Source: the human T2T-CHM13v2.0 reference genome, Homo sapiens
Length of the DNA stretch: 64,000 nt
Reading direction: 5' to 3' (one strand)
NCBI RefSeq assembly: GCF_009914755.1
Contig: NC_060943.1
Part shown: piece after piece, positions 46,757 to 63,702 of the stretch
Position numbering within the stretch: position 1 is the first letter of the stretch
Layout: the number at the start of each line of letters is the position of its first letter
Made by a program: the position numbers and the translations under genes
Notes under the pieces: generated by a model
Told to the model about the DNA's origin: nothing
Databases searched by the model: none
The model's input: only the letters and a program-made list of their open reading frames with translations

Positions 46757-46792
46757 TATAAGCCCGCCTGGCCCGCAGCACCTGCAGCCACC
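46757..46792 (+). promoter_or_regulatory. TATA box and Kozak context of the tectorin-like gene relic
   Basis: TATAA at 46757-46761; gcagccaccATGg with ATG at 46793. Confidence 0.6.
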
Positions 46793-46820
46793 ATGGGGAT
46801 ACTGTGGCTTCTGCTGGTGG
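46793..46820 (+). pseudogene. Relic exon 1: MGILWLLLV (signal peptide start)
   Basis: Perfect Kozak, hydrophobic codons, gtgagt donor (phase 1). Confidence 0.75.
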
Positions 46821-46900
46821 GTGAGTAGGAGTGGGGACTCTGGAAGGGGGTCGACTGTGCCACGTGGGCCCCAGCCCTTAGCTGACATCCTTCCCCTCAG

Positions 46901-46939
46901 TCCTACAGAACCAAGTGACTTGGAGCAAGGAGATCAGAG
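46901..46939 (+). pseudogene. Relic exon 2: VLQNQVTWSKEIR (signal peptide end)
   Basis: ctgac branch-like motif, ttcccctcag acceptor, gtgaga donor; 39 nt, phase 1-1, open frame. Confidence 0.6.
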
Positions 46940-47134
46940 GTGAGAATGGATGTGCTCCCTAACCTGGAGAGAGGACAGGGCCATGTGGACAGGCAGGGAG
47001 GGCTCCAGGGGTCTGAGGAGCCATGGCCCCACCCTGGAGTCCCTCAGGGGACCTGGAGCTTTCTCTTGGGGACTGAGGGGACACAGCCCTGCCCTGGGGC
47101 TCTGAGGGGAGCCTCAGTGGTCTCGTGTCCCCAG

Positions 47135-47265
47135 CCTCGCTCCTGTACCCCTATGGGCTGGAGTGTGGGGATCAGGCCCTCCCTGCAGAGGATGATGACT
47201 TCTCTGAGGAGCTGCGGCTGCTGGAGCCCTTCATGCTCTTTGAAGCCACACACGGGACGGCCTAT
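47135..47265 (+). pseudogene. Relic exon 3: ASLLYPYGLECGDQALPAEDDDFSEELRLLEPFMLFEATHGTAY (NIDO N-terminal region)
   Basis: ccccag acceptor and gtgagt donor; LYPYG...DD motif of the TECTA/SNED1/nidogen N-terminus. Confidence 0.88.
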
Positions 47266-59121: not shown

Positions 59122-59720
59122 AGCTGACCTGGCCCCCCGACAGCCACTACGAGCTGTGTGGCTTCTCCTGTCCCAGCTCCTGCACCGAGCCTGCCCTGCC
59201 CGACAGCTGTCTGACACCATGCCAGGATGGCTGCCAGTGTGACCCAGGATTTGTGCTCAGTGGCACGGACTGCTTGACCCCCATCCAGTGCAGCTGCTCC
59301 ATGGGGGGCAGATACCACCTGGCCGGGGAGCCATTCTGGGCTAGGGAGCACTGTGAGCAATTCTGCCACTGCGAGGCTTCCACCCATGCTGTGTGCTGCT
59401 CCCCCTCCTCCTGTGGGCCAGGGCAGAGATGTGGGACCCTAAGGGGCATCTTTGGGTGCCACCCATTCTCCCCTGGCACCTGCCAAGCAGCCGGGCACTC
59501 ACACATCATCACCTTTGATGGGAAAACTGTTGAGTTCTCAGGTACCTGTGTGTCCATCTTTGCCGAATCCTGTGGCTCTTCCGGCTCACTGCCATTCTTC
59601 AGGATACAGCTGTGAAAGGAGAACAGATCCAGCAGCCCCCTCATGCTCATCTTGGAGGTGTCTGTCCAGGTTAATGGGACCCAGGTCCACCTGCGGAGGG
59701 ACAGCCCAGGCATGGCTCAG
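59122..59720 (+). pseudogene. Relic exon: TIL, VWC and VWD N-half; TGA at 59613; donor GT>AT
   Basis: PPDSHYELCGFSCPSSC...CQDGCQCDPGFVLSGTDC...GHSHIITFDG...IQL*KEN...GMAQ followed by ataagc. Confidence 0.92.
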
Positions 59721-60793
59721 ATAAGCACCAGCTTTGGGACGTGTCGTTTCTAGGAACCCCAACCCTTCACCCAAACCCATAGGCCCAAGGGAAAAACTTA
59801 TTCTGTCTCCATTATTTCTACATTTTACCTCTATTTTCTGATTATATGCCCATTTTTGACTATATCCATCAGATGCATTCAGCTAATATAACAGAAACAC
59901 TCTCAGACCAGCTTAAGAAAAAAAAGAATTACTGATTTACACAATTGAAAAAAAAAATCTACAGGTGTATGGATTCAGGCATAGCTGGACCCAGGTGCTT
60001 GAACAATATGTCTCAAATCTGTCTCAATTTCTGGGCTCTCCTTTCCTTCATTTTCAGACAGGCACCATCCCATCCCACCTTGTAGGGACAAGGACAGCTG
60101 CCAGGTTAGCAAATGTCACTGGAGGAAAAGTGTCCCTCACTGGCCCAGCTTGAGTCATGTGACCACCCCTGAATCCCTGATGGACTAGCTGATTGGCTGG
60201 GCCTGGGTCATGTGCTGGAAGTTAGGATAGGATTGACTTTCTGTGAACCACATGGATTGATTTTGGAGGGGTGAGTTCTCAGGGAAATCCAGAGAAAGGA
60301 GAAATGAATGCAGAACAGGATAAAACAAGAGATGGTCACTATTATAGTTATGTCCTTGTTCCTTCATCTAAAAATGTTTTACATGTATTGGTACGGTGGC
60401 TTACATCTGTAATCCTAACACTTTGGGAGGCCAAGGCAGGTGGATCCCTTGAGCCCAGGAGTTCAAGACCAGCCTGTCTCAAGCAGGCAATATAGCGAGA
60501 CCCCGTATCTAAAAAAGAATTAGGTGGGTGTGTTGGCGCACGCTTATAGTCCCAGCTTATAGTCCCAGCTACTTAAGAGGCTGAGGTGGGAAGATCGCAT
60601 GAACACAGGAGTTCATGGCTGCAGTGTGCCATGATTGTGCCACTGCATCCAGCCTGAGGGTCAGAGTGAGACCCTATATCAAAAAAATATCAACATTTTT
60701 CACGTATTTGAACACCTACTATGTGCCAAGCAACACTGACCCAACTGTGGTCCTATGCTCCCGAGCCTTCCTTTGATTCTGCCTGCTCCTTAG

Positions 60794-61324
60794 GTGAATG
60801 GTGAGACAACAGCCCTCCCCGTAAGCCTGAATGGGGGCAGCCTTGCCGTCCACTGGAATGGCCTCTTCTCCCTGCTGCAGTCAGACTTTGGCCTCTGGCT
60901 CAGCACAGATCTCACCTACAGCCTTACCCTCACCCTGCCCCACCTCTACAAGGGTCACACCTGTGGGCTCTGAGGCAACTTCAACTGCAACCCCAGTGAG
61001 GACGCTAAGGCTGACATTACCTTGGAGAAGCAGAGCAAGGCTTGTAGGGACAGCTGTGGGGCTGCCTGTCCAGTCTCAGTCTGCAATGACCAGGGGCAGA
61101 TTGTGTCAGCCAGGAGGCAGTGCTGGCTCCTGCAGGACCCCCAGGACCCTTCAGCCACTGCCACTGGGAGATCAACCCAGACCCATATGTTTCCAGCTGT
61201 GTCGATGATTTGTGTCTTGCTGGGGATGATGACCACATCCTCTGCCTGGCCCTGCAGACATATGCCGCCATCTGCCAGGGCGCCAACATCACCATCAGGC
61301 ACTAGAGGAATTCTTCCTTCTGTG
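60794..61324 (+). pseudogene. Relic exon: VWD C-half plus C8; TGA 60971, frameshift near 61145, TAG 61303
   Basis: VNGETTALPVSL...YKGHTCGL*GNFN...CWLLQDPQ/GPFSHCH...CVDDLC...YAAICQ...RH*RNSSFC; gtgagt donor. Confidence 0.92.
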
Positions 61325-63515
61325 GTGAGTCATGGTTGAGCAGGGCAGGAATTCATCTGCATGCTCTGTATGGCCACACACAGACTGACATCCTTCTGTA
61401 CTCCTGGGCTGCCTGAGTGCCCCAACCACTTCCCATATTCCCAATTCCAGCACAGGAAGGCCTTCCAGGTTCTCCTCCTAGGCTCCAGCTGGACGCATGT
61501 GGATTGGTAGGGGGCCTGTATGCTACCGACTGTTATGTTTTTTTTTGTTTTTTGTTTTTTTTGAGACAGAGTCTCACTCTGTCACCCACACTGGAGTGCA
61601 GTGACTTGTTCTTAGCTCACTGCAACCTCCTCCTCTCGGGTTCAAACTATTCTTCTGCCTCAGCCTCCCAAGTAGCTGGGATTACAGGTGCCCGCCATCA
61701 CGCCCAGATGATTTTTTGTATTTTTAGTAGAGATGGGGTTTCACCATGTTGGCCAGGCTGGTCTCGAACTCCTGACCTCAGGTGATCCGCCCACCTCGGC
61801 CTCCCAAAGTGCTGGGATTACAGGTATGAGCCATGGCACCCAGCCCGCTATGTATTTTGAATACCACCCTGGGTTGACTGGATCCCTGGCCCCCTGTCAA
61901 GGGGATGTCCTTTTCCACCCTCAGAATGCCTGACCTGAGATGCCACAATAATAATCCCAACAACTGCTAATACTTATTGAACATCTACAATGTCCCAGGC
62001 ATGGGGCCGAAGGCTCTGTGTACCTCTTGCCGCCACTGTCTCAGAAACACCCTGCAAGTGAGAGGCAATGACTGTTATTATTCCCACTTTACATTTGGGA
62101 AAACAGAGGCTCACAGAGGTAAAGCCATTTGTCTACTGCTAATCACAACAGACAGAGTTGAGACTTGAACTAAGACTTTCTTTCTCCAGAGACAAAAGAA
62201 GTTTTATTACTAGCCATATCATCTAATTCTTTCTTTCTTATTTAACTATTATGGAAAATTTGAACATAAAAGTAGAGAGAATAGCCTATTGAATGCCCCT
62301 GTACCCAGAAGGCAGCCTCAACAACAGCCAAGTTGTGGCCGACCTGTGTCCACCTCCACCCCTCCCTTATTGATTTATTTTGTGTAAAGCAAATCCCAGA
62401 CAACGTGTAAACCTGTAAATACTCCAGCATTATTTTTTTTAATAGATAAGGACTTTTAAAAAGAAAAAAACCTGCTGTGGCCGGGCGCGTGGCTCACGCT
62501 CACACCTGTAATCCCAGCACTTTGGGAGGTCGAGGCAGGCGGATCACCTGAGGTAGGGAGTTTGAGACCAGCCTGACCAACATGGAGAAACCCCGTCTCT
62601 ACTAAAAATACAAAATTAGCCGGGCGTGGTGCTGCATGCCTGTAATCCCAGCTACTCGGGAGGCTGAGGCAGGAGGATCACTTGAACCTGGGAGGCGGAA
62701 GTTGCGGTGAGCTAAGATTGCGCCATTGCACTCCAGCCTGGGCAACAAGAGCGAAACTCCGTCTCAAAAAACAAAGACAAAACAAACAAACAAAAAAACC
62801 TGCTGTGATTTGCTCACACCTAACAAAATAAGCAGTAATTCCCAGATATCATGAAAAGCCTAGTCCATGTTCAGATTTTTCTGATCGTTCCTAAAACATC
62901 CGGCTTTCCTCCCTTGCACCAAAGCTTTGCTGGCCCCTAATGCTTGCCCATTAAGGGTTCCTAGCTGGTTCCAACATTAGGGGCGCAATCGGGGCAGGTC
63001 ATGTTCTACGGGGTGGGGGTGGAAGGTGCCGCTTTCTTGCTCAACCAACAGGCAACAAAAGCCTGTCCGATACCATCCTGGGGATCAAGACACCCCTAAA
63101 ACCAGGTTCTAACCCACCTATGTTAGATCCAAATGTGAATCTCTGACACCTGGGCCGTAGGGAACCCTCAAAGGGTTTGGAATAGGGAAGGCGGGGAGCG
63201 GGGTGGAGTGGGGGGGGAGGTAAGACAGTGAGAAAGGTGGGCCACCTAGGGGCTATTTCTGGAATAACAATAGGTCGCATTTATCCAAGGTTCCCAGGGT
63301 GCCAGGCGCTGTCCCAACCACTTAATTTATTTTAACTTGCTTAACCCTCAAAGTCAGTTTGAGGTCAGTACTCTTTTCGGAGAGATGGGTACGGAGTCCT
63401 GGAGAGGTTAAGCACCACGACAGAGCCGAGATTTTAAGCACTCGGTCAGGGAGTTGGGCAAATGTGGCCTGCAGATCATGTTTCCTTACCCGCGCTTTTT
63501 CTCCTCCCTGCATAG

Positions 63516-63702
63516 CCGCCACGTGTCCTAAGCACAGCAGCTACCAGCAACGCTTGGACCCGCGCCGGGTGCAGCTCTGCGTCCCCGCGGCCGCCCTGCC
63601 TGCTCCGAGGGCTGCGCCAACGATAACGCGCACCTGTGGGCAGGGGCCAGGTGCCGGCACCCGAAGGAGTGCGGCTCGGCGCACGGCGGCCCCTCCTACC
63701 AG
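63516..63702 (+). pseudogene. Relic exon: TIL domain, frameshifted
   Basis: ATCPKHSSYQ.../CSEGCANDNAHLWAGARCRHPKECG...SYQ; catag acceptor, gtgagc donor. Confidence 0.78.

What the first reader, a model, noticed from the sequence alone, without database searches (positions are those of the whole stretch)
46757..63702. Lost gene: multi-exon alpha-tectorin/FCGBP-like unitary pseudogene downstream of HPN
Seen: an ordered + strand exon series with phase-compatible GT-AG junctions, starting from TATA and Kozak ATG. It encodes signal peptide, NIDO, VWC, then repeated VWD-C8-TIL assemblies. Established: NIDO followed by VWD-C8-TIL repeats is the alpha-tectorin (TECTA) layout, while FCGBP, ZAN and gel mucins share the D assemblies but lack NIDO. 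The NIDO introns fall where I recall them in TECTA (..Y|, |VNTFQ, AQ|AGF), which needs checking. The protein is far too diverged to be a recent TECTA copy, and it keeps introns. Inference: this is an ancient paralog encoding a secreted polymeric matrix or mucus protein that was inactivated in the human lineage. I know of no named protein-coding gene here. The ORF track fragments it, so it is easy to miss.
Basis: partly seen in the sequence, partly recalled or inferred. Interest (0 to 1): 0.92.

Follow-up and report, generated by a model that had tools for sequence, protein, structure and literature searches.

The report
Dead tectorin-like gene beside HPN
Between HPN and FXYD3 lies the decayed remnant of one large secreted-matrix gene, a cousin of the inner-ear gene TECTA and the gut-mucus gene FCGBP. 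Gene models for it look intact in marsupials and are best preserved among placentals in rabbit. In humans it is broken by many stops, frameshifts and missing exons, and RefSeq labels its pieces as two unrelated pseudogenes.

Summary
On the + strand an ordered exon series encodes a signal peptide, NIDO, a Cys-rich linker, then VWD-C8-TIL/TILa assemblies (Pfam E down to 1e-17). Almost every exon edge has a canonical AG or GT.

The remnant does not stop at 63,702. It runs about 15.7 kb past the window end, to extended coordinate ~79,461 (chr19:37,651,461). In all it has about 19 exon remnants and parts of six D assemblies.

It maps colinearly onto residues 29-2157 of "IgGFc-binding protein-like" of Tasmanian devil. 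Five more marsupials have the same model. It is 52-66% identical to marsupial models and 67-81% to rabbit models, against 36-47% to human FCGBP and 33-42% to human TECTA. The reciprocal best hit holds.

In a tree, human+rabbit (100/100) join the marsupials (100/100), then alligator, then a turtle/squamate group. All are separate from true TECTA. The NIDO introns sit at the same places as in TECTA.

The human copy is dead: 7 in-frame stops, about 8 frameshifts, one GT>AT donor, three missing blocks and 4 of 56 conserved cysteines lost (rabbit 0 of 56).

Verdict: one unitary pseudogene of an amniote-wide TECTA/FCGBP-like paralogue. It is already partly annotated, as two mislabelled pseudogenes, so interest is moderate.

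The parts
46757..46820 (+). Promoter-proximal TATAAG (46757-46762) and exon 1. The ATG is at 46793 in a GCCACCATGG context; it encodes MGILWLLLV and is followed by a GTGAGT donor after 46820.
   Evidence: Sequence read. Marsupial models start MGVLWLLIVALQ.. / MGMFWLL.. and rabbit starts MELLWLLLV...
46901..46939 (+). Exon 2, a mini-exon encoding (V)LQNQVTWSKEIR. It has an AG acceptor and a GTGAGA donor, and is in phase with exons 1 and 3.
   Evidence: Matches rabbit ..STLQNRVTWSEETR.
47135..47265 (+). Exon 3: ASLLYPYGLECGDQ...GTAY, the start of the NIDO region. The donor is TAT|GTGAGT, the same intron position as TECTA ..VY|.
47470..47751 (+). Exon 4, the NIDO core. It carries an in-frame TGA at 47650-47652 (Gly in rabbit).
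   Evidence: Pfam NIDO; 68% identical to rabbit; stop located.
48391..48528 (+). Exon 5, NIDO (VNTFQ...GIAAQ). It has no lesion. RefSeq's 'SNED1 pseudogene' starts here.
   Evidence: Same intron positions as TECTA.
48618..48777 (+). Exon 6, the end of NIDO (AGFNSG...NGCTYN). It carries an in-frame TAG at 48726-48728 (Trp in orthologues).
49320..49699 (+). There is a frameshift near 49351-49417. The start coordinate is approximate.
   Evidence: 60% identical to rabbit and 39% to devil. No Pfam hit.
49705..52394 (+). Gap where the exons for the second half of VWD0, C8-0 and TIL-0 (rabbit residues ~415-647) should lie. Nothing recognisable remains. Alu-like sequence abuts the truncated next exon.
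   Evidence: tblastn and an unfiltered HMM search were both blank. Alu-like matches at 51108-52342.
52395..52835 (+). Exon 9, truncated at its 5' end: TILa-0 plus the first half of VWD1 with GDPH at 52605. No stop; the donor is CAG|GTGAGC.
   Evidence: Pfam TILa+VWD; 72.5% identical to rabbit.
53020..53590 (+). Exon 10: the second half of VWD1 plus C8-1. The frame is intact. The 3' end is approximate.
   Evidence: Pfam VWD+C8; 57-60% identical to marsupials and 76% to rabbit.
59122..59720 (+). Exon 11: TIL-1, TILa-1 and the first half of VWD2. It carries an in-frame TGA at 59613-59615, and its donor is mutated to AT (59721-59722).
   Evidence: Pfam; 72% identical to rabbit.
60794..61324 (+). 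Exon 12: the second half of VWD2 plus C8-2. It carries TGA at 60971-60973 (Cys codon in orthologues), TAG at 61303-61305 (Trp), and a frameshift near 61140.
63516..63702 (+). Exon 13: TIL-2, with a frameshift near 63570 and lost cysteines. The donor lies after 63702. It sits inside the first exon of RefSeq LOC124904701 (63343-63702).
63703..64000 (+). Start of the intron that leaves the window. THE REMNANT CONTINUES BEYOND THE WINDOW. Extended coordinates are chr19 position minus 37,572,000; loci L015 and L016 hold the sequence. Exon 14, 66701-66954: TILa-2 plus the start of VWD3 with GDPH at 66877; its 3' part is replaced by a simple repeat at 66955-67095. Exon 15, ~69354-69585: the end of VWD3, frame intact. 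Exon 16, ~71304-71600: C8-3, frameshift near 71560. Exon 17, 72136-~72732: TIL-3, TILa-3 and the first half of VWD4 with GDPH at 72508; frameshift near 72285; cysteines lost. Exon 18, ~77084-77600: the second half of VWD4 plus C8-4; frameshifts near 77125 and 77340; TGA at 77217-77219. Exon 19, 78868-79461: TIL-4, TILa-4 and the first half of VWD5; 77% identical in protein to exon 11; frameshift near 79345; TAG at 79411-79413. Exon 19 is the last recognisable remnant.
   Evidence: Own-genome hits beyond the window; loci fetched; self and guide tblastn; Pfam on the stop-free pieces; stops located; splice edges.

Best explanation
This is a single unitary pseudogene of about 32.7 kb (chr19:37,618,757-37,651,461 in T2T-CHM13). 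It is the human remnant of an amniote-wide gene for a large secreted protein. The protein's layout was signal peptide, NIDO, a Cys-rich linker, then six VWD-C8-TIL(a) assemblies.

The gene is a separate, old paralogue of TECTA, with which it shares the NIDO and its intron positions. Its D assemblies are closest to FCGBP among human genes. It survives as long, open gene models in marsupials and reptiles. Among placentals it is best preserved in lagomorphs.

By analogy with FCGBP, TECTA and the gel mucins, the ancestral product was most likely a disulfide-linked extracellular matrix or mucus glycoprotein. Three of its VWD domains carry the GDPH autocleavage motif. This functional reading is inferred, not shown.

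In the lineage leading to humans the gene lost function and has since decayed by point stops, frameshifts, a splice-donor mutation, loss of conserved cysteines and loss of whole exon blocks. Rough estimates from lesion density and cysteine loss put the loss at tens of millions of years ago. This dating is also inferred.

RefSeq's two entries, 'SNED1 pseudogene' (LOC100421064) and 'FCGBP pseudogene' (LOC100420797), are parts of this one gene. The first exon of the 'protein-coding' LOC124904701 overlaps another part.
For: Domains and order: Pfam.

One gene: colinear tblastn of devil P0016 residues 29-2157 along 47,452-79,412. P0016 has the architecture NIDO + 6 VWD + 6 C8 + TIL/TILa. The same model exists in six marsupials. 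Rabbit models share the signal peptide, NIDO and D assemblies.

Orthology-grade similarity: 67-81% to rabbit, 72-82% to pika and 52-66% to marsupials, against 36-47% to human FCGBP and 33-42% to human TECTA. The devil protein's best human matches are at this locus.

Tree: human+rabbit 100/100; joined with marsupials 100/100; with alligator 97/94; with a turtle/squamate group 96/97. True TECTA forms its own clade at 100/96.

Introns: at the same NIDO positions as human TECTA, with canonical splice sites.

Death of the gene: stops at 47650, 48726, 59613, 60971, 61303, 77217 and 79411. Frameshifts are seen. The donor at 59721 is GT>AT. Missing blocks are shown.

Relative rate at marsupial-conserved columns: 82 human-only against 38 rabbit-only changes. 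Conserved cysteines lost: 4/56 in human, 0/56 in rabbit. The human terminal branch is 0.49 against 0.081 for rabbit.
Against: Synteny of the marsupial, rabbit and reptile genes with HPN/FXYD3 could not be checked, so orthology rests on similarity, colinearity, reciprocal best hit and phylogeny.

All comparison proteins are automatic gene models. The rabbit models are partial (835 and 1146 aa). One skips exons and has a locally out-of-frame stretch in C8-1, so function in rabbit is not proven. In the later part of the rabbit model, rabbit-only changes equal human-only ones, 25 against 26.

The dating is crude. Raw amino-acid divergence on the human branch would allow a much older loss than lesion density suggests.

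No expression or protein data for any orthologue were found, so the function is inferred from domain content only.
Confidence: 0.88

Rival explanations
1. There are two unrelated pseudogenes lying side by side, as RefSeq has it: a SNED1-derived fragment (the NIDO part) and an FCGBP-derived fragment (the D assemblies).
For: The RefSeq annotation supplied with the finding. SNED1 does carry a NIDO that is about 40-50% identical to the orthologue models over that domain.
Against: NIDO and the D assemblies are joined in the same order in eight independent models of other species. The exons share a strand and compatible phases. The NIDO introns match TECTA. The tree puts the N-terminal part with the rabbit and marsupial models at 100/100, not with SNED1. 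The FCGBP exons are only 36-47% identical. The only other human match to the NIDO exon is TECTA.
Confidence: 0.03
2. It is a duplicated (non-unitary) pseudogene: an old segmental copy of human TECTA or FCGBP that decayed, with the parent gene still present.
For: It has the same domain types and shares the NIDO intron positions with TECTA. FCGBP lies on the same chromosome, 5 Mb away.
Against: Identity to both genes is far lower than to the marsupial, rabbit and reptile models. In the tree the clade containing the remnant also holds alligator, turtle and squamate proteins and excludes true TECTA of the same groups. The split therefore predates amniotes, and each lineage kept both genes. FCGBP lacks a NIDO.
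Confidence: 0.04
3. The locus is not simply dead. Part of it still makes a product, either a truncated protein or a spliced + strand RNA such as LOC124904701. Alternatively, its sequence now serves the antisense lncRNA HPN-AS1.
For: RefSeq's LOC124904701 exon ends exactly at the remnant's TIL-2 donor (63702). This suggests residual + strand transcription and splicing. HPN-AS1 exons overlap exons 1-6 and exon 11 in antisense (supplied annotation). HPN-AS1 has a literature in liver cancer. Several exons keep open frames of 170-240 aa.
Against: There are stops in the fourth and sixth coding exons, 15 or more small lesions over about 6 kb, and missing blocks. These rule out the ancestral protein. 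An N-terminal product would end inside NIDO. No RNA data could be examined here.
Confidence: 0.05

Closest known systems
Marsupial 'IgGFc-binding protein-like' / 'alpha-tectorin-like' gene models (Sarcophilus P0016, Sminthopsis P0152, Notamacropus P0153, Dromiciops P0154, Macrotis P0155, Monodelphis P0160) and rabbit 'alpha-tectorin' models P0256/P0255
   Same: The domain order is the same (NIDO, Cys-rich linker, six VWD-C8-TIL(a) assemblies). The match is colinear over about 2,100 residues. Identity is 52-81%. The reciprocal best hit holds, and the clade has 100/100 support.
   Different: Those models are open, with conserved cysteines kept (rabbit 56/56). The human copy has 7 stops, about 8 frameshifts, a donor mutation, three missing blocks and no last D assembly. 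None of these genes has a curated name or a known function.
TECTA (alpha-tectorin), chr11
   Same: It has an N-terminal NIDO followed by a Cys-rich stretch and VWD-C8-TIL assemblies. The intron positions in the NIDO region are identical. It is the only other human match to the NIDO exon.
   Different: Identity is only 33-42%. TECTA forms a separate clade that has its own marsupial, reptile and bird members. TECTA ends in a ZP module, and none is found here or in the marsupial models. The remnant has six D assemblies, with GDPH in three.
FCGBP, chr19q13.2
   Same: It is the closest human relative of the D assemblies (36-47% identity). Both have tandem VWD-C8-TIL units with GDPH motifs and internally repeated units.
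   Different: FCGBP has no NIDO, and the remnant starts with one. The identity is well below that to the orthologue models. The RefSeq name 'FCGBP pseudogene' therefore names a cousin, not a parent.
SNED1
   Same: It shares the NIDO domain, which is the basis for RefSeq's label 'SNED1 pseudogene' on 48391-49076.
   Different: SNED1 continues with EGF, Sushi and FN3 modules (Pfam lists), not D assemblies. In the tree it forms its own clade away from the remnant.

Membership tests
Unitary pseudogene | Disabling lesions in the coding sequence | tested here: met
   There are 7 in-frame stops with coordinates and about 8 frameshifts. The donor at 59721 is GT>AT. Three exon blocks are missing.
Unitary pseudogene | Not a copy of a gene still present in the same genome (no close parent); ancestral introns retained | tested here: met
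   The best other human matches are FCGBP at 36-47% and TECTA at 33-42%. Introns lie at ancestral positions with AG/GT edges.
Unitary pseudogene | Orthologue with an open frame in other species | tested here: met
   Six marsupial models of 1,616-2,630 aa carry all the domains. Clade support is 100/100. Caveat: these are automatic models and no expression data were seen.
Unitary pseudogene | The orthologue lies at the syntenic position (HPN-FXYD3) | not testable with these tools
   No vertebrate genome other than the human reference could be read.
Alpha-tectorin (TECTA) family, in the strict sense | N-terminal NIDO followed by VWD-C8-TIL assemblies | tested here: met
   Pfam. Intron positions are shared with TECTA.
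Alpha-tectorin (TECTA) family, in the strict sense | C-terminal zona pellucida module | tested here: not met
   There is no ZP signal from 79.3 kb to 104 kb by tblastn with ZP-bearing relatives. The marsupial models list no PF00100. More distant relatives (lungfish, lamprey, P0017) do have one.
Alpha-tectorin (TECTA) family, in the strict sense | Falls inside the TECTA clade | tested here: not met
   True TECTA (sturgeon, birds, snakes, marsupials, whales) forms a separate clade at 100/96.
FCGBP | FCGBP-type N-terminal region (Pfam PF17517) rather than NIDO | tested here: not met
   The N-terminal exons score as NIDO only. PF17517 was not reported for any piece, nor for the marsupial models.
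FCGBP | Tandem VWD-C8-TIL units with GDPH autocleavage motifs | tested here: met
   GDPH is present in VWD1 (52605), VWD3 (66877) and VWD4 (72508). Units are documented. Cleavage itself was not tested.
SNED1 pseudogene (RefSeq label) | NIDO followed by EGF/Sushi/FN3 modules; groups with SNED1 | tested here: not met
   NIDO is followed by D assemblies. SNED1 forms a separate clade.

The most novel reading that the evidence does not exclude
The lost gene may have encoded a structural glycoprotein of the post-ovulatory egg or embryo coat, that is, the oviduct- or uterus-derived mucoid layer. On this reading its decay in most placentals, humans included, tracks the loss of those coats. Its better preservation in lagomorphs, which still wrap the embryo in a mucin coat, and in marsupials and reptiles reflects continued use. 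This would give a molecular marker for the shared origin of marsupial and rabbit embryo coats, which PMC3268785 states is unknown.
Probability: 0.08. Interest if true: 0.75.

Novelty: new member of a known kind. Interest (0 to 1): 0.45.

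Why it matters
Humans are usually said to have six kinds of non-mucin or mucin VWD-C8-TIL proteins (PMC4948705). This locus shows that a further, separate member existed in the therian ancestor and has died in our lineage.

Recognising it as one unitary pseudogene has practical consequences:
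- It corrects two misleading RefSeq parent assignments.
- It flags a doubtful 'protein-coding' model, LOC124904701.
- It explains the protein-like conservation under the lncRNA HPN-AS1.
- It gives comparative biologists a dated gene-loss character to score across mammals.

The uncharacterised live orthologues in marsupials, reptiles and perhaps lagomorphs become candidates for a matrix or mucus function that humans lack.

Tried and rejected
- A first scan used open frames from the FCGBP and TECTA loci as queries. It was swamped by Alu-derived frames, so it was replaced by searches with Pfam-verified pieces and with orthologue models.
- I searched for the missing second half of VWD0, C8-0 and TIL-0 in 49.6-52.45 kb with tblastn (word size 2) and with an unfiltered HMM built from 11 orthologues. 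Nothing was found.
- I searched for the last D assembly, or a ZP module, from 79.3 to 104 kb with tails of marsupial, alligator, lungfish, lamprey, coelacanth and caecilian proteins and with an HMM. Only chance-level matches appeared.
- Literature searches found nothing on this locus. The terms were: the three LOC names and FCGBPP1; unitary pseudogene with tectorin or FCGBP; and HPN-AS1. The Lang et al. 2016 survey does not mention it.
- Rfam found nothing in 44-64 kb.
- I looked for expression support for the egg-coat idea in a dunnart uterus transcriptome paper. There was no mention of FCGBP or TECTA.
- Bird oviduct papers use the same automatic protein names, but for other genes such as CREMP.
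- One Pfam call failed because of my own coordinate slip, and I resent it with corrected coordinates.
Those parts are now listed inside the last in-window entry.
- I considered dating from the divergence of the two internal repeat units (83% DNA identity). I rejected it because the same units are equally diverged (78% protein identity) in the devil model, whose frame is open.

Full report

Yes.
- NIDO: 47125-47652 and 48340-48576
- TILa+VWD: 52344-52883
- VWD+C8: 52987-53712
- TIL+TILa+VWD: 59103-59615
- VWD: 60794-60973
- C8: 61120-61305

E-values reach 1e-17.

TATAAG lies at 46757-46762. The ATG at 46793 sits in a GCCACCATGG context. It is followed by 'MGILWLLLV' and a GTGAGT donor. A 39-nt mini-exon (46901-46939) and exon 3 (47135-47265) join exon 1 in frame and read MGILWLLLVVLQNQVTWSKEIRASLLYPYG. 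Marsupial models begin MGVLWLLIVALQ... and rabbit begins MELLWLLLV.... Nearly every inferred exon has an AG acceptor and a GT donor at the expected edge.

It is a Cys-rich stretch homologous to the same stretch of the orthologue models.

**2. The feature is longer than the window.**

A search of the same genome with the VWD-C8 piece found matches about 13 kb past the window end. I fetched chr19:37,636,001-37,676,000 and worked in extended coordinates, meaning chr19 position minus 37,572,000. Further pieces lie at these positions, all confirmed by Pfam:
- 66.70-66.95 kb: TILa and VWD
- 69.35-69.59 kb: VWD
- 71.3-71.6 kb: C8
- 72.14-72.73 kb: TIL, TILa and VWD
- 77.08-77.60 kb: VWD and C8
- 78.87-79.46 kb: TIL, TILa and VWD

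Nothing recognisable follows up to 104 kb. There is no last D assembly and no ZP module. The remnant therefore spans about 46,757-79,461, or 32.7 kb, with about 19 exon remnants.

**3. What it corresponds to.**

An exhaustive HMMER search, followed by local comparison, singled out P0016. Its Pfam architecture is NIDO + 6 VWD + 6 C8 + TIL/TILa. The named database identifies it as 'IgGFc-binding protein-like [Sarcophilus harrisii]'. Equivalent models exist in Sminthopsis, Notamacropus, Dromiciops, Macrotis (there named 'alpha-tectorin-like') and Monodelphis.

The human remnant maps colinearly onto P0016 residues 29-2157. In the reverse direction, the devil protein's best matches in the human genome are at this locus (57-60% identity). 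FCGBP follows at 37-47% and TECTA at 38-42%.

Closer relatives exist in placentals:
- Two rabbit models, P0256 ('alpha-tectorin', 835 aa) and P0255 (1146 aa), match at 67-81%.
- A pika model, P0259, matches at 72-82%.
- A fragmentary colugo model is P0108.
- A fin-whale model matches only in the wrong reading frame, which means DNA remnants persist there too.

Across the size ranges searched (1,356-4,314 aa, N-terminal region; 389-1,239 aa; 630-2,005 aa), no other placental orthologue model of more than about 850 aa turned up.

**4. Phylogeny and gene structure.**

I built a maximum-likelihood tree of the N-terminal region (NIDO, linker, first half of VWD0) for 39 proteins.
- The human remnant groups with rabbit (100/100).
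- That pair groups with the six marsupials (100/100).
- Alligator joins next (97/94), then a turtle/squamate group (96/97).
- True TECTA of sturgeon, birds, snakes, marsupials and whales forms its own clade (100/96).
- SNED1 forms another.

The root is not established. The tree still shows that amniotes carried both TECTA and this gene.

I mapped human TECTA's exons on chr11. Its NIDO-region introns lie at ..VY|VNNNG..TTP|VNTFQ..MAQ|AGF and ..SRG|. The gene is thus an old paralogue of TECTA in its front part. Among human genes, its D assemblies are most like those of FCGBP.

**5. Why it is dead.**

*In-frame stops within well-aligned exon sequence*
- TGA 47650 (Gly in rabbit)
- TAG 48726 (Trp)
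- TGA 59613 (Gly)
- TGA 60971 (Cys)
- TAG 61303 (Trp)
- TGA 77217 (Trp)
- TAG 79411

*Frame changes within exons*
- They occur near 49.35-49.42, 61.14, 63.57, 71.56, 72.285, 77.125, 77.34 and 79.35 kb.

*Splice site*
- The exon 11 donor reads CAG|ATAAGC instead of GT.

*Missing blocks*
- Rabbit residues ~415-647, covering the second half of VWD0, C8-0 and TIL-0, are gone. The next exon is truncated at its 5' end next to Alu-like sequence.
- The middle of VWD3 is replaced by a simple repeat at 66,955-67,095.
- Everything after exon 19 is missing.

*Relative rate*
- At 708 columns conserved among marsupials, human-only changes outnumber rabbit-only ones 82 to 38. In the N-terminal part the count is 56 to 13.
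- Human has lost 4 of 56 conserved cysteines; rabbit has lost none.
- The human terminal branch is six times the rabbit one.

**6. When (inference).**

About 6 kb of aligned coding remnant carries 7 stops and about 8 frameshifts, and 7% of conserved cysteines are lost. For the calculation I used textbook values from my own knowledge. About 3-4% of random substitutions create stops. Small indels occur at about one-tenth the substitution rate. About 8 of 9 changes in a Cys codon are non-synonymous.

With these values the three counts give neutral divergences of roughly 0.033, 0.015-0.02 and 0.027. That is of the order of the human-lineage divergence since the catarrhine ancestor, so tens of millions of years.

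Raw amino-acid divergence on the human branch would allow an older loss. The 127 of 708 columns where human and rabbit share a change, together with the long stem branch (0.5), show fast evolution before the two lineages split. The date is therefore loose. The loss is clearly not recent or human-specific.

**7. How the ancestral product probably worked (inference from domain content).**

It had a signal peptide, so it was secreted. It had NIDO and then six D assemblies of the type that make disulfide-linked polymers in VWF, mucins, FCGBP and TECTA. GDPH motifs are present in VWD1, VWD3 and VWD4; in FCGBP and some mucins this is the site of autocatalytic cleavage. The most likely role is a polymeric extracellular matrix or mucus component. 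No expression or protein data were found for any orthologue.

**8. Relation to existing annotation and literature.**

RefSeq places LOC100421064 ('SNED1 pseudogene', 48391-49076) on exons 5-6. It places LOC100420797 ('FCGBP pseudogene', 52461-61423) on exons 9-12. The first exon of 'protein-coding' LOC124904701 (63343-63702) ends exactly at the donor of the TIL-2 exon.

These are therefore parts of one gene, and neither named 'parent' is a parent. I found no paper on the locus. I could not consult GENCODE.

**9. Rivals.**
- Two separate pseudogenes. This is contradicted by the colinear single-gene models, the compatible exon phases and the tree.
- A decayed duplicate of TECTA or FCGBP. This is contradicted by the identities and by the amniote-wide separate clade.
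- Residual function as RNA or a truncated product. This is possible for RNA, is untested here, and cannot restore the ancestral protein.

**10. A speculative reading.**

The lineages with the best-kept copies are reptiles, marsupials and lagomorphs. These lineages deposit post-ovulatory coats around the egg or embryo. PMC3268785 notes that rabbit, horse and some carnivores keep such coats, and that their homology with marsupial coats is unknown. I found no direct evidence for a link and give this reading a low probability.

**11. Safeguards.**

No contig from another collection was taken for a person's DNA.

Noticed in passing
window 63343-63702 (RefSeq LOC124904701, 'hepatitis A virus cellular receptor 1-like', protein_coding): The first exon of this model ends exactly at the splice donor of the pseudogene's TIL-2 exon (TACCAG|GTGAGC after 63702), and the exon contains that remnant. 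The model may be a transcript of the dead gene rather than a real coding gene. Its coding part lies beyond the window and was not examined.
   Followed up: partly
window 59121-59615 versus L016:4867-5361 (extended 78867-79361): The two TIL-TILa-VWD units are 77% identical in protein and 83% in DNA within human. The corresponding devil units are 78% identical to each other. Every human-devil pairing is only 61-64%. This suggests gene conversion between internal repeats, or parallel duplication, in both lineages.
   Followed up: partly
L015:2955-3095 (extended 66955-67095): A simple repeat, which reads IHPSIHPS... in frame, replaces the middle of the VWD3 exon straight after ..TCTYHLAYA.
   Followed up: partly
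window ~51100-52345, just upstream of the truncated exon at 52395: Alu-like sequence fills the gap where about 230 codons of exons are missing, and it abuts the 5'-truncated exon 9. The loss may have been Alu-mediated, which would place it within primates.
   Followed up: partly
database proteins P0257 (fin whale), P0259 (pika, first ~120 residues), P0255 (rabbit, C8-1 stretch) and P0108 (colugo): Several public 'proteins' of this gene in placentals are translated partly out of frame or skip exons relative to the marsupial and human reading. They seem to be gene models built on decaying copies.
   Followed up: partly
alignment columns; stem branch: Human and rabbit share a derived residue at 127 of 708 columns that are conserved in marsupials. 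The branch leading to human+rabbit is long (0.5). The gene therefore evolved fast before primates and lagomorphs split. I have no explanation for this.
   Followed up: no
window 45394-48769, 52130-52246 and 59546-59690, minus strand (HPN-AS1 exons, supplied annotation): The lncRNA HPN-AS1 runs antisense through the whole remnant. Its exons overlap pseudogene exons 1-6 and exon 11. Protein-like conservation under that lncRNA comes from the dead gene on the other strand.
   Followed up: no
window 47125-47652: A 175-codon open frame runs through exon 3, the whole of intron 3 and most of exon 4 without a stop. The mechanical ORF list therefore joins two exons and hides the intron.
   Followed up: yes
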